Assembly (NCBI RefSeq): GCF_029227855.1
Contig: NZ_CP074356.1
Direction: 5' to 3' (one strand)
Length of the DNA stretch: 64,000 bases
From: Escherichia coli
Lineage (GTDB): Bacteria; Pseudomonadota; Gammaproteobacteria; Enterobacterales; Enterobacteriaceae
Position 1 is the stretch's first letter, and every line of letters starts with the position of its first letter. The notes below the pieces were generated by a model, which had not been told where the DNA came from, did no database searches, and was given only the letters and a program-made list of their open reading frames with translations. Of the stretch, positions 3,536 through 61,050 are shown one piece after another. The position numbers and the translations under genes were made by a program.

Positions 3536-7243
<3,708 letters not shown>

Positions 7244-46587: not shown

Positions 46588-47184
46588 ATGGTTGGTGTTA
46601 CTCAAAGGTCAGGGAATTACTCACGTAATGTGCAGGTGGTTGTCGATTCTAACTCTGTTGATATTATAAAGTCTCCATCGATTTTTATGGATCTTGTTGG
46701 TATTTTAGTTGATTCGAATGTTATTGATCCTCGTACAAACAATGACTACGAGCCATATGATATTGAGAATAAAATAGACTTCAATGATGTTATAAAACAT
46801 AGAGAACGTATTGAAGGGTTCTATCTATATTCTTCGATGATAGATAAAGCGTATGAAACATTAAATGAAAGTATGCCTACTGCTAAGGAAACGGCACTGA
46901 AAAGCATCAATTCACGATATCTTGATTGTCAAGGAGATTTATTGCTTAAACATAGAGAAGCGTATAAGAGCTGCAAGGATGCTCAGGAACGGAATAATTT
47001 AAAGATTCAATTGGTAAGAGAGTTTGCAGATTGGATAATAGACAGTGTAATAGAGCACATCATTAAGAAATGCTTAAATTCTCTTATGGCAATGAATTAC
47101 ACAAGCGAAGAAATCGAATGCCATGCTTCTTTTATCGTTTATCATGCATTCGTAGAGTGTAAGATTCTGGAAAAACCAATATGA
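46588..47184 (+). CDS. hypothetical protein (198 aa), second gene of the AT-rich cassette
   Basis: ATG 46588 with GAGG SD; stop overlaps the next start (ATGA); no motif I recognise. Confidence 0.65.
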   Translation: MVGVTQRSGNYSRNVQVVVDSNSVDIIKSPSIFMDLVGILVDSNVIDPRTNNDYEPYDIENKIDFNDVIKHRERIEGFYLYSSMIDKAYETLNESMPTAKETALKSINSRYLDCQGDLLLKHREAYKSCKDAQERNNLKIQLVREFADWIIDSVIEHIIKKCLNSLMAMNYTSEEIECHASFIVYHAFVECKILEKPI

Positions 47185-47417
47185 TTATCTCTGATGTAAC
47201 AAAACCAAGCCAAACCTTGTATTACCTGGGAGCTCGGTTATTAGAATGCATGAGTTCAAATGCTTATTCGTATGTTGATATTATAGACTTGTATAATGAA
47301 TTCAAATCTAAAAATAACAACTCTTCATTCACGCAATATATTTACACTTTAAATTGGCTATATTTATTAGGCCTGGTTGATGCTAACGAAAATGGAGATT
47401 TGATATTATGTTTTTGA
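47181..47417 (+). CDS. hypothetical small protein (78 aa), third gene of the AT-rich cassette
   Basis: ATG 47181 overlapping the upstream stop; 3' end overlaps the ATPase start by 10 nt. Confidence 0.6.
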   Translation: MIISDVTKPSQTLYYLGARLLECMSSNAYSYVDIIDLYNEFKSKNNNSSFTQYIYTLNWLYLLGLVDANENGDLILCF

Positions 47418-49132
47418 AACGGCTAATAGTCAGTTCTTTCAGGCTTGGAGTGATTCGTGATATCGAATTTCACATTGGCGTTAATTTGATTATTGACCGA
47501 AACACCTCCAGCAAAGAGCAAACTGGAAATGGTGTGGGAAAAACTACTGTATTAAGAGCTTTAGATTTTTGTTTTGGAGCAGAACAACTGAATTTTTATA
47601 CCGATCCTGAATTCAAGAAAGAAAATTCGGTTATAAAAAATTATTTGATAGAGAACGAGATTGAGTTTTGTTTAATTCTCACAAAAGATTTGAATAATAA
47701 AACTGCACCAGTAATAAAAATTAAGCGTAAAATTACATCTGAGACTAATAAAACGAAGGTTATAGCCTCAATAAATGAAGAGTCCTATACGAAGGCTAAA
47801 GATTTCAACGAGGCTTTAAAAAGAACATTATATCTTGATTCCGCGATAAAACCGACCATACGAGAGATTATGGGACGTGTTATTCGAAATACGCATGACA
47901 AGATGTCGAACGCATTAAAAACGATAAAAATGGGTTCTAATACACAATATGAAACGTTAAATCTGTTTATGTTTGGGTTCGGTAACTCACAGATTCTGGA
48001 TGAAAAACAGTCAGTGACTAAAGCCTATAAACTGGCGAAATCCGATTATGAAGTAATTACTCGCCATCGCTCAAAGAATGCTTTGGAACAAGCTATTGCA
48101 ATTATAAATAGAGATATTATAGCACAAGAAGAGTTAATTTCTAATTTTCAAGTGGCAGACTCTTATAATGATATGCTTGCTGAGTTAAATGAGTTAAAAA
48201 TTAAAATTAGTGAAGTTTCTATCACACTATCATCTTTGGAGTTTAAGCAAAAATTAAACGATAAGGCTATACTAGATCTGGAAAAAAGTCATGAAAATAT
48301 AAATACACTAGATCTACAGAAGTTGTACTTAGAAGCAACTGATCGGTTAGGTAACTTAAACAAAGAGTTTACTGAGCTACTTTCGTTTCATAATAAAATG
48401 CTTGTAAAAAAAGCTGAGTTTATTAGAAAACAAATGCAGCCAGTGCTGCAAGAAATTTCCAAATATAAAGATGAACTAAATAATTTATTGACTCAAGAAT
48501 CAGAGCTTTTAAAGAGTTTGTCTTCGCATGGGACATTGGCAGACCTGCAAATAATGCAAAAAAAATTAAATTCATTATTTGAAGAAAAAGGTGGGCTTGA
48601 AGCTGGACTACTTCAAATCCAAGAGATGGAGAACAACTTTAATATACTGAAAGCAAAGTTTAATGATGTGTCAGATAGATTAAAATCTAAACTTGACGAT
48701 TTTAACAAACGTCTTGCGCTATTCAATTCCTATTTTTCTTTATATACTAAAAAATTATATCAGGATGAATATATTCTTTCCTATAAAGATTCCTCCGGTT
48801 CTTTCGTTTTTACCATTGAACCTTTAGGAACTTTGCTCACATCAGGTAATCAGGGAGAAGGAAAAAAGAAAGCCCAGGTTGCCTCTTTAGATTTTGCCTA
48901 TTTATCTGTCCAGGAGTCTTTAGAAGCCAGAACACCACGTTTTATAGCTCATGATGGAATTGAGGCAATTCATGTAAATCAAATAAATAAGTTATTCGAG
49001 ATAGCTTCGGGGATTAATGGTCAATATATATTGGCTATTCTTAAAGACAAGTTGGAGAATATTGATCAAGACTTCATCAATAATAGTGTTGTGCTTGAGC
49101 TTGGGGAGGACGATAAGTTTTTTAGGCTTTAA
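47408..49132 (+). CDS. SMC/Rad50/ABC-type coiled-coil ATPase (574 aa), fourth gene of the AT-rich cassette
   Basis: N-terminal P-loop TGNGVGKTTVLRALDFCFG (RecF/SMC-type Walker A); ~300-aa heptad-rich central region; C-terminal TSGNQGEG (signature-like) followed by RFIAHDGIEAIH (Walker-B/D-loop-like); GGAG SD. Confidence 0.8.
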   Translation: MFLKRLIVSSFRLGVIRDIEFHIGVNLIIDRNTSSKEQTGNGVGKTTVLRALDFCFGAEQLNFYTDPEFKKENSVIKNYLIENEIEFCLILTKDLNNKTAPVIKIKRKITSETNKTKVIASINEESYTKAKDFNEALKRTLYLDSAIKPTIREIMGRVIRNTHDKMSNALKTIKMGSNTQYETLNLFMFGFGNSQILDEKQSVTKAYKLAKSDYEVITRHRSKNALEQAIAIINRDIIAQEELISNFQVADSYNDMLAELNELKIKISEVSITLSSLEFKQKLNDKAILDLEKSHENINTLDLQKLYLEATDRLGNLNKEFTELLSFHNKMLVKKAEFIRKQMQPVLQEISKYKDELNNLLTQESELLKSLSSHGTLADLQIMQKKLNSLFEEKGGLEAGLLQIQEMENNFNILKAKFNDVSDRLKSKLDDFNKRLALFNSYFSLYTKKLYQDEYILSYKDSSGSFVFTIEPLGTLLTSGNQGEGKKKAQVASLDFAYLSVQESLEARTPRFIAHDGIEAIHVNQINKLFEIASGINGQYILAILKDKLENIDQDFINNSVVLELGEDDKFFRL

Positions 49133-51614: not shown

Positions 51615-51992
51615 ATGCGTGATATTCAGATGGTTCTTGAGCGTTGGGGGGCATGGGCGGCTAATAATCATGAAGATGTGACCTGGTCGTCCATTGCCGC
51701 TGGTTTTAAGGGATTAATTCCTTCAAAAGTAAGATCTCGTCCGCAATGCTGTGACGATGACGCGATGATCATTTGTGAATGTATGGCTCGCCTGAGAAAA
51801 AACAACAGCGATTTACATGGTTTATTGGTGGACTATTATGTCGGCGGCATGACTTTTATGGCGCTTGCACGTAAGCATGGGCGATCTGATTGTTGGGTTG
51901 GCAGGATGCTCCAGAAAGCTGAGGGCGTAGTGGAGGGCATGCTGATGGTATTGGATCTCCGATTGGAGATGGATGCTGATTGTTCGAAATAA
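51615..51992 (+). CDS. late-gene antiterminator Q (QuuD-type), about 126 aa
   Basis: ORF 51600..51992 (TTG); ATG at 51615 after GGAG; [34 protein letters not shown]... recognised as the short Q family of DLP12 QuuD. Confidence 0.85.
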
Positions 51993-52147: not shown

Positions 52148-52672
52148 TTATTGTTTAACCCATAATAATTCATTGACATTGAATCCCAACTTTTGAGCGG
52201 TTCGCACATAGTCTGCTTTTACTTTATCTGGAATAGTTGGGGTCCTTGCCAGAATCCATAGGTATTCTCTGTTCGAACCACTAACAAGAGCATACTTATA
52301 CTCATCATCCAGTTTGATTACATTATAGCCACCATAGAAGGGGCCAAAAAACGAAACCTTCAACGCTGCAGTTTTAGTATCTCCAGTAAAGTATGCTTTA
52401 CCTTCGCTCTCGCTCCATTTATTTTTCGTTGGATCGTATCCACGGTTAAGTACACGAATCCCTCCGTCGTTCCGTTTTCCATAAGTAGCGCTGACCTGTT
52501 CCAGACCACGTTCGAACCGGTTCTCGAGGCGAGCTATTTCATACCATTTTCCGAGGTAGCGGTTGGCGTCAAAATTTGTAATCGGCTGCACACCTTTAGG
52601 TGGTGTCGGGGCCTTACATGCTATAAGAGTGAAAGAGAGTGCAATGCCAGTCAACACAGGCCATAACTTCAT
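52148..52672 (-). CDS. outer-membrane lipocalin Blc homologue (about 174 aa), prophage cargo
   Basis: ORF 52148..52678 (-); ATG at 52670-52672 with AGGA SD; lipobox LIAC; lipocalin motifs NFDANRYLGKWYEIARL, YNVIKLDDEYKYALVSG; AT-rich. Confidence 0.85.
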   Translation of the reverse strand: MKLWPVLTGIALSFTLIACKAPTPPKGVQPITNFDANRYLGKWYEIARLENRFERGLEQVSATYGKRNDGGIRVLNRGYDPTKNKWSESEGKAYFTGDTKTAALKVSFFGPFYGGYNVIKLDDEYKYALVSGSNREYLWILARTPTIPDKVKADYVRTAQKLGFNVNELLWVKQ

Positions 52673-52864
52673 AATCAATCCTGTACTTTTGATAGTTGAG
52701 AGTAAGTATGAAAGATAGATGATTACGACCGATCACTTAAAGAACTTTCATACTATATTAGGAATAGTCCATAACAGAAAAATTGTCAGTGATGACGTCA
52801 GAAAGGCAATTTATTCCGTGCACTACACAGTTTATGTGTTAATGAATTAGTCAAGGGGGAGGAT

Positions 52865-53824
52865 ATGATAAAAAAACCTGTGATTGGAATCAGCGGTTGT
52901 TTGGCCGGTTCTGCTGTTCGTTTTGATGGTGGTCACAAAAGAGCTGACTTTTTAATGGACAAATTAGTGGAATGGGTAACATTCAGACCAGTATGTCCGG
53001 AAATGGCTATAGGGCTGCCAGTTCCGCGTCCTGCTCTACGTCTTGTGCGCTCGAAGCAAGGAAATATACGGATGTGTTTCAGCCACGACCAGAATGAGGA
53101 TGTGACAGAGAGAATGACAGAGTTTAGTCGTTCTTATATGCACAAATTAAAGGATGTATCGGGGTTTGTGGTTTGTGCTAAATCTCCCAGCTGTGGCATG
53201 GAGCGCGTGCGTGTCTATGATGAAAATGGTAATCGAGGTCGTAAAGATGGAGTGGGACTATTTACGAGCACTTTGATGGAAAAGTTTTCCTGGCTACCGG
53301 TTGAAGAGGATGGGCGATTACATGATCCAGTGCTTCGTGAGAATTTTGTTGAAAGAGTTTTTGCTTTGCATGAGCTCAATCACCTTTACAAGGAGAAATT
53401 ATCAAGAAGAGAGTTATTAGCTTTTCATAGTCGTTATAAGCTTCAGTTGTTGGCGCATAGTCAGGCAGGCTATAAAGATATGGGACCATTTGTGGCTGCA
53501 ATACACGAGTGGGCGGACCTTGAATCATACTTTGAGGTGTATCGTGATAAGCTGATGGCGATTCTCAGAAAACCTGCATCACGTAAAAATCACACGAATG
53601 TGCTGATGCATATACAGGGGTATTTTAGTAATTACTTAAGTACACGCCAGCGTAAAGAGTTGACCGAGGTTATACTTAACTATCGCTTTGGCACATTGCC
53701 TCTTCTTGCGCCGTTGACTCTGCTGAAGCATTATCTGGGTGAGTATCCTAATGATTACTTGCTTACACAGAATTACTTCGATCCCTATCCGGAAGAACTG
53801 GCTCTAAGACTGATGGTGAATTAA
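52865..53824 (+). CDS. two-domain DUF523 (TudS-like Fe-S thio-nucleobase desulfidase) plus DUF1722 protein, RudS-like (319 aa)
   Basis: ORF track 319 aa; GGGGGAGG SD; N-terminal GISGCLAGSAVRFDGGHK with further Cys at FRPVCPEM and VVCAKSPSCGM (three-Cys Fe-S pattern); C-terminal half YbgA-like. Confidence 0.75.
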   Translation: MIKKPVIGISGCLAGSAVRFDGGHKRADFLMDKLVEWVTFRPVCPEMAIGLPVPRPALRLVRSKQGNIRMCFSHDQNEDVTERMTEFSRSYMHKLKDVSGFVVCAKSPSCGMERVRVYDENGNRGRKDGVGLFTSTLMEKFSWLPVEEDGRLHDPVLRENFVERVFALHELNHLYKEKLSRRELLAFHSRYKLQLLAHSQAGYKDMGPFVAAIHEWADLESYFEVYRDKLMAILRKPASRKNHTNVLMHIQGYFSNYLSTRQRKELTEVILNYRFGTLPLLAPLTLLKHYLGEYPNDYLLTQNYFDPYPEELALRLMVN

Positions 53825-54230
53825 CTGTATGCGATATCATCTGAAAGTGATGAGTTCCTGTATGCAGGATATTTACAATCGTAAAAACTACACTATGATA
53901 CCCATAGTGTCAGTTTGTATAAAAATCCTGTTCACGCTGAAGAAAACATTGAGATGCAATTTAATGTTGGTAAACATACCAGCCCCAAAAGATTTTATTC
54001 AATCTGTTTTTATATGAAGATATTTCAAGTGAATATTAAGAGTATATAATATTATTATTGCACGCAGCTATTATAATATAACAGATTAGTTTAATGATTT
54101 GTTTTTTGTGAGTTAAACACATGGTTTTATAGTTGTGATGCAATGAGATTTTCCTTATTGTTGAACTGGCGAATATTGATTTTCCACCTATACTTACCTG
54201 GTGTAACCCCAGTGATATCAGGTGGATAAT

Positions 54231-54944
54231 ATGCCATACATATGTTCTGTCATTTTGGTGTTGAACTCGTTTGGTGTCCGAATTGGTAAAGAAGATATTT
54301 TGTTTAAAAAAGGAAGTGCTGTCCTCATCGAATACAATTTAAAAGATCTTTTTTCGTCAAATACAGATCATCTAATGATCGTAGATGTTGAGGAGAAAAC
54401 AGTTAATGATTTCTTTAAAAACTACACACTCTCACCTTTTTCTGTAAGAAGGTTTTATCCGGCATACTTGATAGTAGAATGTGAAGGTTTTTCTTTGTTA
54501 AAGAACTTGGTTGCATGCTTGAATTGTGATAGCAAAACCGTGGATGTGGTTAGAAATCAAATATCACTTGCATGTCTTGCTGTCTTATCTTCAGAGAAAA
54601 TAGTGCAAAGTTTTTTGTTCGGAAGTCTTAATAGCTTAGGTTGTAAAGTTAAGGCTATTATTCACTCGGATATCTCAGCGTCATGGAGACTTTGTGATAT
54701 ATCTTCAAGATTATATATGAGCGAGAGTTTGTTAAAAAGAAAATTAAAAGACGAAGGGGTATCGTTTAGTAGATTAATTCTTGAAGAACGAATGATGATG
54801 GCGCAAAGATTATTAATTTACAGTAACCATACTGTCGGCAAGGTGGCGGGAATATGCGGGTATGACAATGCATCATATTTTGTAAGTGTTTTTAGAAGAT
54901 ATTTTGGTGTGCCTCCGCACCAATATTTATCAAGATTTTCTTAG
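54231..54944 (+). CDS. AraC/XylS-family transcriptional regulator (about 237 aa), prophage cargo
   Basis: ORF 54222..54944 (GTG); ATG at 54231; C-terminal HTH ...HTVGKVAGICGYDNASYFVSVFRRYFGVPPHQY; AT-rich with long AT-rich upstream region. Confidence 0.85.
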   Translation: MPYICSVILVLNSFGVRIGKEDILFKKGSAVLIEYNLKDLFSSNTDHLMIVDVEEKTVNDFFKNYTLSPFSVRRFYPAYLIVECEGFSLLKNLVACLNCDSKTVDVVRNQISLACLAVLSSEKIVQSFLFGSLNSLGCKVKAIIHSDISASWRLCDISSRLYMSESLLKRKLKDEGVSFSRLILEERMMMAQRLLIYSNHTVGKVAGICGYDNASYFVSVFRRYFGVPPHQYLSRFS

Positions 54945-55355: not shown

Positions 55356-55700
55356 ATGACTCAAGTATACGAACTGGTTGTGAAAGGAGTCCGTAATTTT
55401 GAGAATAAAGTTGCGGTAACTTTAGCCTTACAGGACAAAGAACGCTTTGACGGTGAGATTTTTGACCTTGATATCACTATGGATCGTGTTGAAGGTGCTG
55501 CACTGGAGTTTTATGAGGCAGCAGCCAGAAGGAGAATCAGACAGGTGTTCTTGGATGTTGCTGCCGGGTTATGTGAAGGGGATGAGCAGTCGCCGGAAAA
55601 GCGCCCCATAATTTTAGAGGCGCAGAATGTGTGGATAACCTACAAAGGAAAGCTACCAGGAAGAATTACTGGTTATCTGAAGACTCCGCCGGAATGTTAA
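55356..55700 (+). CDS. hypothetical protein between holin and endolysin (114 aa)
   Basis: ATG 55356 after GAGGAGAG, 5 nt after the holin stop. Confidence 0.5.
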   Translation: MTQVYELVVKGVRNFENKVAVTLALQDKERFDGEIFDLDITMDRVEGAALEFYEAAARRRIRQVFLDVAAGLCEGDEQSPEKRPIILEAQNVWITYKGKLPGRITGYLKTPPEC

Positions 55701-55938
55701 TTTTAACAGCATATTTCTCTTCCAGTAATGCCACCAGCCACTTGAAGGAATTTTGTTGTTCCTGGGACCATTTGGGGCTGTGTGATTCAAGCTGGAGCGA
55801 TGCCAGTGTTGGTTGCATTTGTTCCCTGGGAATTGACAATGCCAGATATGAAAATGCGACAGTAAGGGCATTAACATCATCCCGAAGCCTGGAAATGCAG
55901 TCGAGCAACTCCTGAAGAGAAATGGTGTTATTGTCCAT
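55666..55938 (-). CDS. hypothetical protein, antisense to the lysis cassette (90 aa)
   Basis: Minus-strand ATG at 55936-55938 preceded by AAGAGGA; 3' end overlaps the convergent 114-aa ORF by 35 nt. Confidence 0.45.
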   Translation of the reverse strand: MDNNTISLQELLDCISRLRDDVNALTVAFSYLALSIPREQMQPTLASLQLESHSPKWSQEQQNSFKWLVALLEEKYAVKINIPAESSDNQ

Positions 55939-56875: not shown

Positions 56876-57340
56876 ATGAAACCGGTTCTGTATGCGGTGA
56901 TTGTTATTCTACTGGTGGTCAGTGGTGCGCTGTTGCTGGCAATAGCCCATTACCGCGATAATGCCATCATCTACAAAGAGCAGAGAGATGATGCGAAGAC
57001 AAAACTCAGCCAGGCGAACGCAGCCATTACTGACATGCAGCAGCGCCAGCGTGATGTTACTGCACTCGATGCAAAATACCTGAAGGAATTAGCTGATGCG
57101 AAAGCTGAAAATGATGCTCTTCGTGATGATATTGCCGCTGGTCGTCGTCGGTTGCACATCAGAGCAGTCTGTCAGAGCGTGCGTGAAGCCACCGCCGCCT
57201 CCGGCGTGGGTAATGCAGCCGCCCCCCGACTGGCAGACACCGCTGAACGGGATTATTTCACCCTCAGAGAGCGACTGATAATAATGCAAAAACAACTTGA
57301 AGGGGCACAGCTATACATTCGAGAGCAATGCCTCAGATAA
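56876..57340 (+). CDS. rzpQ: i-spanin Rz (about 154 aa)
   Basis: ORF 56780..57340; ATG 56876 ([26 protein letters not shown]...); N-terminal TM helix plus coiled-coil periplasmic domain. Confidence 0.8.
57096..57278 (+). CDS. o-spanin Rz1 lipoprotein (60 aa), embedded in Rz in the +1 frame
   Basis: ORF track 60 aa [24 protein letters not shown]...; lipobox VVGC; proline-rich ([15 protein letters not shown]). Confidence 0.78.
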
Positions 57341-57657
57341 AAACCGGCCAAGGATAATCCGCTGAAGATTCGCCGGGGCTAGAGAGAGCCAAAGCTTTAA
57401 TTGACACCATTACTCATAGCAAGGCAATGCATCGTTTTTATGAGGTCAATAGATGCCTGATTTATTTCTGTGCTCCGTATCGTCGCTGTATTCCTTCGTT
57501 AACCATGAGTGTAGTCCGACGGGGAGCACGAGTGTATGGGAATAATAAAAAAAGATACACACCTGGGTTTACCGCTTTTATGCTTCGCGGGTTTGCTCTT
57601 CATGCAGCTAGTCCGGTACAGAGGTGTATGAAACCGGACTGCTGATTTAATTAATTC

Positions 57658-58062
57658 CTATATTAATGGTCTGTTATTTTCAACATCTTCCATGTACAAA
57701 AGATCGTGATCAAACGAATAGTAAAACCTTATGTTTTTATCTATATCTGTAATCCAGCGATAAACACCTGCTTTTGCTAAAGTGAGACGATATTGATGAA
57801 ATGTAGATTTACCTGATATAAGATTTCTGGCTGCTTCTTTAATTAATTCTGGTTTCTTTGATGTGCTAACTTTCACAAGTCCTCTACTGCCTCGAACTAA
57901 TAAAATATTATCATCATGAGTAATTAGTCTTATATTATCAGTAGCCAGATAATAAATATAATGCGCAATATTATGGCGTTTTAATTCGGAGTAAAACCAT
58001 GGGAAGTATAAATTACTTCTAACGTGTTCGAATATCTCTTGAAAAATATCTGCCTGCTCCAT
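57658..58062 (-). CDS. hypothetical AT-rich cargo protein (about 134 aa) between lysis and packaging modules
   Basis: ORF 57658..58083 (-, GTG); preferred ATG at 58060-58062 preceded by AAGAGGA; Tyr/aromatic-rich; no recognised motif. Confidence 0.5.
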   Translation of the reverse strand: MEQADIFQEIFEHVRSNLYFPWFYSELKRHNIAHYIYYLATDNIRLITHDDNILLVRGSRGLVKVSTSKKPELIKEAARNLISGKSTFHQYRLTLAKAGVYRWITDIDKNIRFYYSFDHDLLYMEDVENNRPLI

Positions 58063-58218
58063 CAGGAAATATCCTCTTGTCACTGCTACTTCTTACCATG
58101 AGCTTAGATAGTTTGCATGATTTGTTCTCTCACATCAATCTGATCCGACCTCATTGAGGTGGGCGTTGTGAATACCTGATAAGAAATGTGGGTCCTCCCA
58201 ATGGGGGAGGCTGGCACG

Positions 58219-58230
58219 GGGCGGGAGCGT
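58219..58230. other. candidate cohesive-end (cosN-like) site
   Basis: GGGCGGGAGCGT-CGCGG resembles the lambda cos start GGGCGGCGACCT-CGCGG; ~185 bp upstream of the terminase small subunit; next to palindrome CCTCCCaatgGGGGAGG. Confidence 0.3.
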
Positions 58231-58414
58231 CGCGGAAAAAGGCTAGTTTTTGCATTTCCATGGCGGCGGCAGCATGTTTGGTAATTTATTGATAATTAAA
58301 AGTTATTTCCCTTTTCACCTGTACAATATTTTTTTCTTCCTGTCATTAGACCAGTTTGCAATTAATTGAAATATATAAATAAACCTGATTTTCACCTGCC
58401 AGATGGAGTTGCTT

Positions 58415-58942
58415 ATGTCAAATGTGAGCGGGATCGGTGATGCTTATTACTGGAGTGTTTTTAAAATCGCCGAGGCCTTTGGGCTTCACCGGGACACAGT
58501 AAAAAAACGGCTCCTCGCGGCCAACACTCCTGTGGCTGCGACTGTCAGGGGGAACCCCGTTTACGCCCTGCAGCATGTCGGGCCCGCCCTGTTTAGTGTG
58601 AAGCATGAGGCAGCAGACTCTGTTCATGATCCATCCCGTATGGAGCCGAAAGAGAGAAAGGACTGGTACCAGTCTGAAAATGAAAGGATCAAGCTGGAAA
58701 AGGAGCAGCGAAAACTCATCCCAGTTGATGAAGTAGTCATCGTCTATTCGTCCATGAGAAAGGCTGTCGTCCAGGTTCTGGAGACAATTCCGGATGTTCT
58801 TGAACGCGATTGCGCTCTGACTCCTCAGGCCGTCGGCGTTGTACAGCAGGCCATTGATGACCTGCGATACACTCTTCAGGAAAAATCCTACGAGGCTTGT
58901 GCTGCTGAATTAATTCCTGATGAGGAAGGAGAGAGTCTCTAG
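58415..58942 (+). CDS. terminase small subunit (about 175 aa)
   Basis: ORF 58403..58942; ATG 58415 after GGAG; N-terminal HTH-like segment; directly precedes the large subunit. Confidence 0.75.
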   Translation: MSNVSGIGDAYYWSVFKIAEAFGLHRDTVKKRLLAANTPVAATVRGNPVYALQHVGPALFSVKHEAADSVHDPSRMEPKERKDWYQSENERIKLEKEQRKLIPVDEVVIVYSSMRKAVVQVLETIPDVLERDCALTPQAVGVVQQAIDDLRYTLQEKSYEACAAELIPDEEGESL

Positions 58943-58950
58943 GAGGAATA

Positions 58951-61050
58951 ATGGGTTTTTCATCAGCCCGAAATTTGGGAAGGGACATATCGGCAGGATT
59001 TTCCCCACCACGTCGCATGCCGATTTCGGAGGCTGTTAAAAAATTCATGCGTGTTCCCAAGGGGGCTGGTAACTCGGTGCCATGGGATCCTGAACTGACA
59101 CCCTACATCATTGAGCCCATGAACTGCCTGGCATCGCGTGAATACGATGCGGTGATTTTTGTTGGTCCTGCGCGAACAGGGAAGACCATTGGTCTGATCG
59201 ATGGATGGATTGTCTATACCATCGTTTGCGATCCTTCGGACATGCTCGTTGTGCAGATGACCGAAGATAAGGCCCGCGAGCATTCTAAAAAGCGCCTCGA
59301 CAGAACGTTCAGAAGCAGTGCGGCGGTAAAGAAAAGAATGAGTCCACGTCGTAACGACAATAATGTCCATGATAAGAAGTTCAGGGATGGCTCGTTCCTT
59401 AAAATTGGTTGGCCCTCGGTCAACATTATGTCGTCGTCGGATTACCGGTTTGTCGCCTTAACCGATTACGACCGTTTTCCGGAGAATATCGACAGCGAGG
59501 GTGATGGTTTCTCCCTGGCCTCAAAACGTACCACCACATTTATGTCCGCCGGGATGACTCTGGTGGAGAGCTCGCCGGGACGTGACATCTGCGACAGCAA
59601 ATGGCGACGTAAGTCGCCTCATGAAGCGCCACCGACGACTGGTATTCTTTCCCTTTACAATCGTGGTGACCGCCGCCGCTGGTACTGGCCATGTCCGCAC
59701 TGCGGTGAATATTTTCAGCCAGCTATGGATGCCATGACCGGCTACCGTAATGAACCGGATCCCTTTAAAGCCAGTGAGGCGGCGTATCTACTTTGCCCGC
59801 ACTGCAGCGGCATTATCACTGCGGAGAAAAAGCGTGAGCTCAATAGTGCAGGAGTCTGGTTGCGTGAAGGTCAGGTCATTGATCGTAACGGCAACGTTTC
59901 CGGTGAACCGCGCCGCTCCCGTATCGCCAGTTTCTGGATGGAAGGGCCAGCTGCTGCGTATCAGACCTGGGCGCAACTGGTTTACAAATTACTGACTGCA
60001 GAACAGGAGTATGAAGCGACAGGAAGCGAAGAAACACTCAGGGCGGTTATCAACACCGACTGGGGATTGCCTTATCTTCCTCGTGCCAGCATGGAGCAAC
60101 GAAAAAGTGAACTGCTTGAGCAGCGGGCAGAGCCAGTTCCTTCCTGCAGTGTGCCGGATGGCGTTAATTTCCTTGTGGCGACAGTGGATGTGCAGGCGGG
60201 ACGTCATCGCCGTTTTGTGGTTCAGGTAACTGGCTATGGCAGTCGTGGCGAACGCTGGATTATTGATCGTTACAATATCACGCAGTCATTGCGCAGTGAC
60301 TGCGACGGGGAGAGCCAGCGAATTGATCCGGCCAGCTATCCGGAAGACTGGGATGTCCTGCTGACGGATGTTTTTCATAAAAGCTGGCCGCTGGCCTCCG
60401 ATCCTTCTCAACAAATGCGACTGATGGCAATGGCGGTGGACTCCGGCGGTGAAGACGGGGTCACTGATAATGCCTATAAATTCTGGCGTCGTTGCCGTCG
60501 TGATGGCCTTGGTAAACGTATTTACCTGTTTAAGGGCGACAGCATCCGGCGCGCAAAACTGATCACCCGTACATTCCCTGATAACACCGGACGAACGGGC
60601 CGACGGGCGCAGGCCGCAGGTGATGTGCCGCTCTGGCTTCTTCAGACGGATGCACTGAAAGACCGGGTGAATAACGCGTTATGGCGTGACTCGCCAGGTC
60701 CCGGCTATGTGCATTTCCCTGACTGGCTGGGGAGCTGGTTTTACGACGAACTGACGTATGAAGAGCGGAGCAGTGACGGGAAATGGAGTAAGCCGGGTCG
60801 CGGTGCCAACGAAGCTTTTGACCTGATGGTGTATGCCGAGGCTCTGGTCATTCTGCATGGATACGAAAAGATCCGCTGGCCGGATGCACCGGAGTGGGCG
60901 AGCCGGGAAACCTGGCTGGAGTGTGTCCCGGACAGTACCGAACCGTCACCCTCACCGGAACCGGTATCCACGCCTGTTAAAAAACAAAAACGGAAGAAAA
61001 CAGTAACTGACGATGTTAACCCCTGGCTGACTTCCGGAGGATGGTTATGA
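58951..61050 (+). CDS. terminase large subunit (699 aa)
   Basis: ORF track 699 aa; AGGAGG SD; Walker A VGPARTGKT; lambda gpA-like layout. Confidence 0.92.
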   Translation: MGFSSARNLGRDISAGFSPPRRMPISEAVKKFMRVPKGAGNSVPWDPELTPYIIEPMNCLASREYDAVIFVGPARTGKTIGLIDGWIVYTIVCDPSDMLVVQMTEDKAREHSKKRLDRTFRSSAAVKKRMSPRRNDNNVHDKKFRDGSFLKIGWPSVNIMSSSDYRFVALTDYDRFPENIDSEGDGFSLASKRTTTFMSAGMTLVESSPGRDICDSKWRRKSPHEAPPTTGILSLYNRGDRRRWYWPCPHCGEYFQPAMDAMTGYRNEPDPFKASEAAYLLCPHCSGIITAEKKRELNSAGVWLREGQVIDRNGNVSGEPRRSRIASFWMEGPAAAYQTWAQLVYKLLTAEQEYEATGSEETLRAVINTDWGLPYLPRASMEQRKSELLEQRAEPVPSCSVPDGVNFLVATVDVQAGRHRRFVVQVTGYGSRGERWIIDRYNITQSLRSDCDGESQRIDPASYPEDWDVLLTDVFHKSWPLASDPSQQMRLMAMAVDSGGEDGVTDNAYKFWRRCRRDGLGKRIYLFKGDSIRRAKLITRTFPDNTGRTGRRAQAAGDVPLWLLQTDALKDRVNNALWRDSPGPGYVHFPDWLGSWFYDELTYEERSSDGKWSKPGRGANEAFDLMVYAEALVILHGYEKIRWPDAPEWASRETWLECVPDSTEPSPSPEPVSTPVKKQKRKKTVTDDVNPWLTSGGWL

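What the first reader, a model, noticed from the sequence alone, without database searches (positions are those of the whole stretch)
57658..58062. AT-rich orphan gene encoded antisense between Rz/Rz1 and the packaging genes
A ~134-aa aromatic-rich protein with a good SD lies on the minus strand in a clearly AT-rich island between the lysis and terminase modules, another cargo hotspot. No motif I can recognise.
Basis: seen in the sequence. Interest (0 to 1): 0.3.

Follow-up and report, generated by a model that had tools for sequence, protein, structure and literature searches.

The report
Known DUF1398 (YdfO-like) prophage accessory gene
The AT-rich antisense gene between the lysis and packaging genes is real, but it is not an orphan: it belongs to the well-catalogued DUF1398 family (YbcV, YdfO, YcgX and lambda's own p78), it sits in that family's usual slot, and nobody has yet tested what the family does.

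Summary
The ORF is real. It lies at window 57658-58062 on the minus strand, encodes 134 aa, and has an AAGAGGA ribosome-binding site 9 nt before the ATG. Its GC is 0.32 (GC3 0.23) against 0.50-0.54 in its neighbours, and it is antisense between Rz/Rz1 and a DUF1441/TerL packaging pair.

The prophage sits at the rspB/ynfA site, which I recall (not checked) as the K-12 Qin site; that would make this gene the positional equivalent of ydfO. By sequence it is closer to ycgX (64% aa), a gene present in about 92% of E. coli genomes.

In 44 of 45 related prophage loci the gene is antisense to Rz, and it is never co-oriented. Evidence for a functional coding gene and its own promoter:
- dN/dS is 0.10-0.29.
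- A 46-nt upstream block (a PdhR-box-like palindrome plus TTGATG-17-CAAACT) is conserved across alleles whose synonymous sites are saturated.

The PHROG label "head protein" is annotation carry-over and is contradicted by fold, orientation and the non-essentiality of lambda p78.

Best reading: a silenced, independently transcribed accessory gene ("moron") encoding a non-enzymatic cytoplasmic binding module. The molecular function is still unknown. Interest is low.

The parts
57658..58062 (-). DUF1398 / YdfO-like protein gene (134 aa, identical to RefSeq WP_025238988.1); the finding itself
58072..58078 (-). Shine-Dalgarno sequence AAGAGGA, 9 nt upstream of the ATG at 58062
   Evidence: Read directly from the sequence. 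The equivalent GGAAGG/AAGAGG is present in all aligned alleles.
58109..58154 (-). Conserved 46-nt upstream block. It contains a PdhR-box-like element GGTCGGATC (58150-58142; GGTCAGACC in the other alleles), a -35-like TTGATG (58138-58133), a 17-nt spacer and a -10-like CAAACT (58115-58110). This is the candidate promoter/operator of the gene.
   Evidence: Alignments. The block is 67-74% identical to the ycgX, lambda, Tritos, 55989 and ydfO-type alleles, whereas third codon positions are only 39-48% identical. The consensus scan did not report it; by my own count it matches 8 of 12, below the scan's cut-off of 9. A PdhR site was mapped in the ybcV-ybcW spacer of K-12 (PMC7660256). Promoter function is inferred, not shown.
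57605..57644 (-). 12-bp stem-loop starting 14 nt after the stop codon, with no U-tract. It may stabilise the 3' end or weakly terminate transcription; on the plus strand it is followed by an A/U-rich run.
   Evidence: RNA fold (z = -2.2 for the 146-nt stretch). No terminator-like site was called. Function is inferred.
58219..58230 (+). Probable cosN cohesive-end site (GGGCGGGAGCGT). It places the DUF1398 start codon about 157 nt from the right end of the packaged genome.
   Evidence: The deposited genomes of phages Tritos and cdtI begin at this base at 97.5-99.5% identity. The resemblance to lambda's GGGCGGCGACCT is from my own knowledge. Inferred.
56876..57340 (+). Rz i-spanin, with Rz1 embedded at 57096-57278. 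This is the left flank, on the opposite strand.
   Evidence: Pfam Phage_lysis E 1.6e-48. RefSeq 'lysis protein'. The Rz1 ORF with its lipobox-like VVGC appears.
58415..58942 (+). DUF1441 protein (small-terminase position), followed by TerL at 58951-61050. This is the right flank, on the opposite strand.
   Evidence: Pfam DUF1441 E 1.7e-44. RefSeq annotation. The homologue in phage Tritos/cdtI is annotated as small terminase.

Best explanation
The gene is a prophage-borne member of the DUF1398 (YdfO-like) family. It belongs to the YcgX sequence branch but occupies the ydfO/ybcV/lambda-p78 slot at the right end of a Qin-site lambdoid prophage.

It is an accessory 'moron', not part of the lysis, packaging or virion programme. 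It is AT-rich, which I infer makes it a target of xenogeneic silencing by H-NS/Hha, as reported for its K-12 paralogues. It appears to be transcribed leftwards on its own, from a weak conserved sigma-70-type promoter that carries a PdhR-type box.

The product is a soluble cytoplasmic protein of about 16 kDa. It is built from two alpha-alpha-beta3 repeats that form one sheet backed by four helices. No polar residue is conserved across the family, so it most likely acts by binding a host macromolecule or ligand rather than by catalysis, and so adjusts host physiology in the lysogen.

Shown here: family membership, fold, position and orientation, purifying selection, and the conserved upstream block. 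Inferred: silencing, promoter use, expression in the lysogen, and the binding role. The molecular target is unknown.
For: Family and fold:
- Pfam DUF1398 at 139 bits over the whole model; 2HH8 YdfO at E 3.5e-40.
- No other PDB or BFVD fold is significant.

Slot and orientation:
- Antisense between Rz and the terminase in lambda-like HK629, Tritos, PhiR42_1 and the 55989 prophage.
- Among 45 IMG/VR loci, Rz is on the opposite strand in 44 and the small terminase in 30. The other loci had no detectable hit, many being near a contig end. None is co-oriented.
- The prophage integrase abuts rspB/ynfA. That this is the K-12 Qin site is from my own knowledge.

Accessory nature:
- GC 0.316 and GC3 0.23 against about 0.5 for the neighbours; all alleles have GC 0.31-0.33.
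- Lambda p78 is non-essential by CRISPRi (PMC10695390).
- The exact allele occurs in only 8 of 5426 genomes, while other alleles fill the same slot.

Real, constrained gene: dN/dS 0.10-0.29.

Independent, regulated transcription:
- The 46-nt upstream block is conserved at 67-74% against 39-48% at third codon positions.
- K-12 ybcV has a PdhR site and falls 10-fold in a pdhR mutant (PMC7660256).
- ybcV rises more than 1000-fold when T4 MotB, which perturbs H-NS repression, is overexpressed (PMC7827196).
- ycgX is de-repressed in an hha/ydgT mutant (PMC3686432).
- ydfO is induced 116-fold by an ionic liquid (PMC4077768).

Cytoplasmic and non-enzymatic:
- pI 8.0, no 19-residue hydrophobic stretch, no signal peptide.
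- Only L27, G99 and W103 are invariant across the wide family.
Against: - No experiment on any DUF1398 protein defines a function. A 2025 survey found 'no consistent functional inference' for ycgX (PMC12356324).
- The only phenotype found is an altered glycogen content when ybcV is over-expressed (PMC2853380).
- The often-repeated statement that YdfO over-expression protects against oxidative stress is a mis-citation. The cited paper reports YfdO of CPS-53, not YdfO.
- In this allele the PdhR-like box is degenerate (GGTCGGATC in place of GGTCAGACC), and by my count the promoter match is weak (8 of 12); the scan did not report it.
- Expression of this gene in the lysogen was not, and cannot be, tested here.
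- Chromosomal homologues in Bacteroidota have no conserved neighbour, so gene context gives no clue to a partner.
Confidence: 0.55

Rival explanations
1. The gene is an early 'first-in' host-takeover or anti-defence factor. It lies about 160 nt from cosN at the right genome end, reads inwards, and has its own host-type promoter. In lambda the right end is packaged last and injected first (textbook knowledge). The gene could therefore be expressed as soon as DNA enters the cell, to blunt a host defence or to prime the cell.
For: - The position next to cos is inferred from the Tritos and cdtI genome ends.
- The promoter-like block lies between the gene and cos.
- Lambda p78 is dispensable on laboratory hosts, as is usual for anti-defence genes.
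- Many deeply divergent alleles share one slot.
Against: - dN/dS of 0.10-0.29 shows purifying selection, not arms-race diversification.
- The nearest relative, ycgX, is a near-core chromosomal gene.
- Distant homologues are ordinary chromosomal genes in Bacteroidota.
- In most YdfO-type phages a further gene, ynfO, lies between DUF1398 and cos.
- Lambda DNA entry is fast, so the order of entry matters little (my own knowledge).
- No similarity to any known anti-defence fold was found.
Confidence: 0.1
2. The gene is a prophage-encoded superinfection-exclusion or anti-phage defence gene, expressed from the lysogen to block other phages.
For: - It lies in a moron hotspot next to the slot used by bor in lambda.
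- It is AT-rich, independently transcribed cargo.
- The same prophage carries other defence-like cargo, an ABC-three-component system.
Against: - No PADLOC model matches, even at E 0.1.
- It is a single small protein with no enzymatic or membrane features.
- The K-12 copies ybcV, ydfO and ycgX have not been reported as defence genes in the papers found.
- The chromosomal Bacteroidota homologues seen here have varied neighbours with no recurring defence gene. One (L094) lies beside an HNH nuclease and a HicAB pair.
Confidence: 0.1
3. The protein is the toxin or effector half of a two-gene module with the small DUF3950 protein YnfO/YlcI. YnfO looks to me like a ribbon-helix-helix protein, which was not tested. 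The copy in this window would be a solo remnant of such a module.
For: - In 40 of 43 YdfO-type loci a 77-aa DUF3950 gene lies 45-60 nt upstream on the same strand.
- A stop-codon-loss fusion of the two, P0035, stands for 761 sequences.
- The 3' end of ynfO survives as the conserved upstream block in alleles that lack ynfO.
Against: - The window allele, its near-identical copies L014/L015, and ycgX all lack an intact ynfO. The lambda-like HK629 keeps only a partial remnant of it.
- ycgX is maintained in 92% of E. coli genomes, which is hard to square with an unguarded toxin.
- ybcV over-expression gave viable cells in the ASKA screen.
- YnfO has no detectable relative in the PDB, so its ribbon-helix-helix nature is only an impression.
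- The ynfO-to-DUF1398 spacing varies between loci by 1 nt (about 290 or 291 nt start to start), which changes the reading frame, so no programmed read-through is conserved.
Confidence: 0.05
4. The protein is a virion 'head' or 'envelope' component, as the PHROG 413, RefSeq and older lambda annotations say.
For: - PHROG 413 'head protein' matches at E 1.4e-47.
- Several phage records label the homologue 'head protein' or 'putative envelope protein'.
Against: - The labels disagree with one another and trace back to one uncharacterised lambda ORF.
- The gene is antisense to the late operon in every locus examined.
- Lambda p78 is non-essential.
- There is no transmembrane segment or signal peptide.
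- The fold matches only YdfO and no capsid, portal, scaffold or decoration protein in the PDB or BFVD.
- Paralogues are kept in cryptic prophages and as a near-core chromosomal gene.
- Homologues are common in Bacteroidota chromosomes.
Confidence: 0.02

Closest known systems
YcgX of E. coli K-12 (DUF1398; chromosomal, between bluR and iraM, beside the e14 prophage)
   Same: YcgX is the closest common relative: 64% amino-acid and 70% nucleotide identity over the full length, the same 134-aa size and the same C-terminal ...EDVENNxPLI tail. Both lack an upstream ynfO, and both keep the conserved upstream block.
   Different: ycgX is a fixed, near-core chromosomal gene found in 5010 of 5426 genomes. 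The window gene sits in an apparently intact lambdoid prophage between Rz and cos and is rare (8 of 5426 genomes at 95% identity or more).
YdfO (Qin prophage) and YbcV (DLP12 prophage) of E. coli K-12; YdfO has the solved structure PDB 2HH8
   Different: Identity is only 46-50% and synonymous sites are saturated. YdfO-type genes usually have the DUF3950 gene ynfO immediately upstream, which is absent here. In this allele the PdhR-type box is degenerate.
Lambda ORF lambdap78 ('putative envelope protein'), with the same gene in HK629, HK630 and DE3
   Same: 50% identical over 129 residues, and in the same slot and orientation at the right end of the genome. It scored non-essential for lytic growth by CRISPRi.
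   Different: In lambda the gene lies between bor and the divergent lambdap79 (ybcW-like), about 1 kb from cos. Here there is no bor and no ybcW homologue, and the gene is only about 160 nt from cosN.
Lambda bor and lom type lysogenic-conversion 'morons'
   Same: It works like these genes in genome architecture: a small gene with foreign base composition, inserted between conserved late-region modules and transcribed on its own rather than with the surrounding operon. Bor is the immediate neighbour of the lambda homologue.
   Different: Bor and Lom are outer-membrane proteins with signal sequences and known phenotypes. This protein is cytoplasmic and has no known phenotype, and its expression in lysogens is not documented.

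Membership tests
DUF1398 / YdfO-like (Pfam PF07166) | Sequence match to the family HMM above the curated threshold, over the whole domain | tested here: met
   139.3 bits against a cut-off of 22; protein residues 15-133 of the 141-aa ORF cover model positions 1-119 of 119.
DUF1398 / YdfO-like (Pfam PF07166) | YdfO fold: two alpha-alpha-beta3 repeats forming a single domain | tested here: met
DUF1398 / YdfO-like (Pfam PF07166) | Family-wide conserved residues (L27, Y35, A96, G99, W103 in this protein's numbering) | tested here: met
   All are present in the window protein in the 19-sequence alignment that spans enterobacterial and Bacteroidota members.
Prophage ydfO/ybcV/lambda-p78 positional class | Lies between the lysis cassette and the cos/terminase region, antisense to the late operon | tested here: met
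   The window layout is shown. The same arrangement holds in 44 of 45 IMG/VR loci and in four annotated phages or prophages.
Prophage ydfO/ybcV/lambda-p78 positional class | Conserved upstream block (GGTCAGACC box plus TTGAAG-17-CAnACT) | tested here: met
   The block is present at 58154-58109 and is 31-34 of 46 identical to other alleles. The box is degenerate here, GGTCGGATC.
Prophage ydfO/ybcV/lambda-p78 positional class | Partner gene ynfO/ylcI (DUF3950) immediately upstream on the same strand (typical of the YdfO subtype) | tested here: not met
   tblastn finds no YnfO in the window, and the two small upstream ORFs have no Pfam match. It is also absent from ycgX; the lambda-like HK629 keeps only a remnant.
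Moron / lysogenic-conversion cargo | Base composition unlike the flanking phage genes, and insertion between conserved modules | tested here: met
   GC 0.316 and GC3 0.23 against 0.50-0.54 and 0.48-0.55. The flanks are conserved in more than 2000 genomes while the gene itself differs.
Moron / lysogenic-conversion cargo | Own promoter and terminator | tested here: inconclusive
   A conserved promoter-like block exists, but by my count it matches only 8 of 12 consensus positions and the scan did not report it. There is a hairpin after the stop codon but no U-tract.
Moron / lysogenic-conversion cargo | Expressed from the repressed prophage and confers a host phenotype | not testable with these tools
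   This needs RNA-seq of the lysogen and knock-out phenotyping. Only indirect K-12 data exist.
Virion head or packaging protein (PHROG 413 label) | Structural similarity to a known capsid, portal, scaffold, decoration or terminase fold | tested here: not met
Virion head or packaging protein (PHROG 413 label) | Co-transcribed with the late structural operon and required for plaque formation | tested here: not met
   The gene is on the opposite strand in every locus examined. Lambda p78 scored non-essential by CRISPRi (PMC10695390).
Known anti-phage defence systems (PADLOC-DB 2.0) | Match to any defence-protein HMM | tested here: not met
   No family matched at E of 0.1 or better.
Type II toxin-antitoxin module | Adjacent cognate antitoxin gene, with the toxin unable to persist alone | tested here: not met
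   There is no upstream partner here. Solo copies such as ycgX are kept in 92% of E. coli genomes.

The most novel reading that the evidence does not exclude
DUF1398 proteins are a still-unrecognised class of phage-borne host modulators. Each would be a small platform-fold protein made from the genome end that enters the cell first. Expression would come from a promoter wired to the host pyruvate sensor PdhR and held down by H-NS/Hha. The protein would bind a conserved host macromolecule to tune carbon and stress physiology, or to blunt a defence, early in infection or in the lysogen. The near-core gene ycgX would then be a domesticated copy. The window allele, which has lost the ynfO partner and sits only about 160 nt from cosN, would be the most stripped-down version of this module.
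Probability: 0.1. Interest if true: 0.5.

Novelty: already known. Interest (0 to 1): 0.12.

Why it matters
The result matters mainly as a clean-up. The gene should be filed as DUF1398 (YcgX/YdfO/YbcV/lambda p78 family), not as an orphan and not as a "head" or "envelope" protein. It also flags two errors that are spreading through databases and papers:
- The PHROG/RefSeq "head protein" label has no evidence behind it.
- The claim that YdfO protects against oxidative stress comes from confusing YdfO with YfdO.

The wider point is modest but real. A gene present in phage lambda itself, in two K-12 cryptic prophages, and as a near-core E. coli gene has had a solved structure since 2006 and still has no known function. 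The conserved upstream block and the frequent ynfO partner found here give concrete starting points for anyone who wants to test it.

Tried and rejected
- NCBIfam: no model hit.
- PADLOC: no hit.
- Rfam at E of 1 or better across 57000-58600: only a sub-threshold chance match, Prion_pknot at 21 bits against a cut-off of 39.
- Consensus promoter/terminator scan: nothing upstream of the gene on the minus strand and no terminator. The conserved block was found only by aligning alleles.
- Gene-neighbourhood inference for the wider family: eight contexts were examined and no neighbour recurred.
I did not run the expensive genome-contig scan, because only close relatives could have been seeded.
- Programmed read-through linking ynfO and the DUF1398 gene: rejected, because the spacing varies by 1 nt between loci and so changes the frame.
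- Lambda ribosome-profiling paper: not held. The cap on papers was reached before I could check the sigma-70 SELEX papers for ycgX.
- tblastn for Bor, YbcW and GnsB in the IMG/VR loci returned nothing. I did not resolve whether this is a true absence, so I make no claim about those neighbours.

Full report
**Observation.** The ORF listing gives a minus-strand frame at 57658-58083. The ATG at 58062 yields the 134-aa protein and is preceded by AAGAGGA at 58078-58072, with a 9-nt spacer. RefSeq uses the same start in an E. coli chromosome whose 12.7-kb matching stretch differs from the window by about one base, and all homologues align from that Met. The gene has GC 0.316 and GC3 0.231, against GC 0.50-0.54 and GC3 0.48-0.55 for Rz, the lysozyme, DUF1441 and TerL. 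Aromatic residues make up 14% of the protein. The flanks are as described: a P21-type holin, a DUF1327 protein, a lysozyme and Rz/Rz1 on the left, and DUF1441 plus the large terminase on the right, all on the plus strand.

**It is not an orphan.**
- The protein matches Pfam PF07166 (DUF1398) end to end, at E 8e-41 and 139 bits against a threshold of 22.
- It matches the NMR structure of E. coli YdfO (PDB 2HH8) at E 3.5e-40.
- An AlphaFold model built on 13 homologues has pLDDT 91 and consists of two alpha-alpha-beta3 repeats.
- RefSeq already holds the identical protein as WP_025238988.1, "DUF1398 family protein".

**Relatives.**
- E. coli K-12 has three paralogues: ybcV (DLP12), ydfO (Qin) and ycgX (PMC3509220).
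- Phage lambda carries one at 47066-47452 on the minus strand, ORF lambdap78, 50% identical to the window protein.
- The window allele is closest to ycgX (64% aa, 70% nt). ycgX occurs in 5010 of 5426 complete E. coli genomes, next to bluR and iraM.
- At 95% identity or more, the window allele occurs in only 8 of 5426 genomes.
- Synonymous sites are saturated between this allele and the lambda/YdfO clade (pS about 0.8). dN/dS is 0.10 to the closest allele and 0.15-0.29 within the other clade. These are old lineages under purifying selection, not fast-evolving conflict genes.
- Every allele has GC 0.31-0.33.

**Position.** The prophage integrase abuts rspB/ynfA. I recall this as the Qin site of K-12, which would make the gene the positional equivalent of ydfO. 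The slot is conserved: in HK629 (lambda-like), Tritos, PhiR42_1 and a prophage of E. coli 55989 the DUF1398 gene lies antisense between the lysis genes and the cos/terminase region. In an IMG/VR scan, 45 prophage-type loci had Rz on the opposite strand in 44 cases and the small terminase on the opposite strand in 30. The remaining loci had no detectable hit, many being close to a contig end, and none was co-oriented. One divergent member lies in the other late-region cargo slot, between Q and the holin, in the sense orientation. The deposited genomes of phages Tritos and cdtI start at window 58219. The sequence there, GGGCGGGAGCGT, resembles lambda's cohesive end (my own knowledge). The gene is therefore the last gene at the right end of the packaged genome, with its start codon about 157 nt from cosN.

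**Regulatory region.** Aligning the upstream regions of 24 distinct alleles exposed a conserved 46-nt block. In the window it lies at 58154-58109. It consists of GGTCGGATC (GGTCAGACC elsewhere), then TTGATG, a 17-nt spacer and CAAACT. The block is 67-74% identical between the window and ycgX, lambda, Tritos, 55989 and ydfO-type alleles, whereas third codon positions are only 39-48% identical. The palindrome corresponds to the PdhR site mapped by genomic SELEX in the ybcV-ybcW spacer, and ybcV mRNA falls 10-fold in a pdhR mutant (PMC7660256). By my count the promoter match is weak (8 of 12), below the consensus scan's cut-off of 9, and the scan did not report it. A 12-bp stem-loop follows the stop codon but has no U-tract. 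No Rfam family matches. I read this as a weak, activator-dependent promoter of an independent transcription unit. That is inferred, not shown.

**The ynfO partner.** In 40 of 43 YdfO-type loci a 77-aa DUF3950 gene (ynfO/ylcI type) lies 45-60 nt upstream on the same strand. A stop-loss fusion of the two genes stands for 761 sequences in the protein database. The conserved block is in fact the 3' end of ynfO, and it is retained in alleles that have lost ynfO, including this one, ycgX and lambda. The window has no ynfO.

**Published data.**
- ybcV rises more than 1000-fold when T4 MotB perturbs H-NS repression (PMC7827196).
- ycgX is de-repressed in an hha/ydgT mutant (PMC3686432).
- ydfO is induced 116-fold by an ionic liquid (PMC4077768).
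- ybcV over-expression alters glycogen content (PMC2853380).
- Lambda p78 is non-essential by CRISPRi (PMC10695390).
- A 2025 survey could draw no inference for ycgX (PMC12356324).
- The statement that YdfO over-expression confers oxidative-stress resistance is a mis-citation. The cited paper names YfdO of CPS-53 and never mentions YdfO.

**The "head protein" label.** PHROG 413 carries the label "head protein", and several RefSeq phage records repeat it, while GenBank versions of the same ORF say "putative envelope protein", "YbcV" or "hypothetical". The evidence goes against the label: opposite strand to the late operon, dispensable in lambda, no structural resemblance to any virion or packaging protein, and paralogues kept in cryptic prophages and as a core chromosomal gene.

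**Verdict.** The gene is an already catalogued DUF1398 family member in that family's usual prophage slot. The best-supported account is a silenced, independently transcribed accessory gene encoding a non-enzymatic cytoplasmic binding module. The rival readings (anti-defence from the first-entering genome end, superinfection exclusion, toxin of a ynfO module, virion component) each have specific evidence against them. The function remains open, as it does for the lambda homologue, but this window adds little that is new. Interest is low.

Noticed in passing
L056 3710-3943 with 3986-4411; also L051-L093; protein P0035: In YdfO-type prophages a 77-aa DUF3950 gene (ynfO/ylcI type) lies 45-60 nt upstream of the DUF1398 gene on the same strand, in 40 of 43 loci. 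A stop-codon-loss fusion of the two (233 aa) stands for 761 database sequences. This suggests a functional link between two families of unknown function.
   Followed up: partly
window 57341-57657: The roughly 300-bp spacer between Rz and the DUF1398 stop codon is conserved at about 80% identity in more than 2000 E. coli genomes, while the adjacent gene is not. It holds a 72-aa plus-strand ORF (57427-57645) that hits phrog_6954 'Rz-like spanin' at E 3e-10 but has no Pfam match, and a 12-bp hairpin at 57605-57644.
   Followed up: partly
window 55666-55938 (-): A 90-aa ORF lies antisense within the lysis cassette, overlapping the 3' end of the DUF1327/YdfR gene. It matches phrog_2411 (unknown function) at E 3e-53 and RefSeq annotates it as hypothetical (WP_069903859.1). 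It is a second antisense gene in the late region.
   Followed up: no
window 52148-54944: A cargo block lies between the Q antiterminator (about 51615-51992) and the holin. It comprises a lipocalin-family gene (minus strand), a YbgA-family gene and an AT-rich (GC 0.34) AraC-type HTH regulator at 54222-54944. This is the slot used by stx in Shiga-toxin phages.
   Followed up: no
window about 46588-49132 (mapped from NZ_CP059003.1 at 99.25% identity): The early region of the prophage carries genes that RefSeq annotates as an 'ABC-three component system' (three genes, including a DUF2326 protein), followed by hokD. This is probably defence or addiction cargo.
   Followed up: no
window 58219-58230: This is the probable cosN site. 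The deposited genomes of phages Tritos and cdtI begin here, with GGGCGGGAGCGT compared to lambda's GGGCGGCGACCT. No ybcW/lambdap79 homologue lies between the DUF1398 gene and cos, unlike in lambda and DLP12.
   Followed up: partly
literature (PMC4077768 citing PMC3105296): The claim that YdfO over-expression increases oxidative-stress resistance is a name mix-up. The cited study reports YfdK, YfdO and YfdS of prophage CPS-53, and its text does not mention YdfO.
   Followed up: yes
protein annotations (e.g. P0269, P0341): Chromosomal DUF1398 proteins of Bacteroidota are labelled 'phage envelope protein' in some NCBI and UniRef records. This is the unsupported lambda p78 label spreading across phyla.
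   Followed up: no
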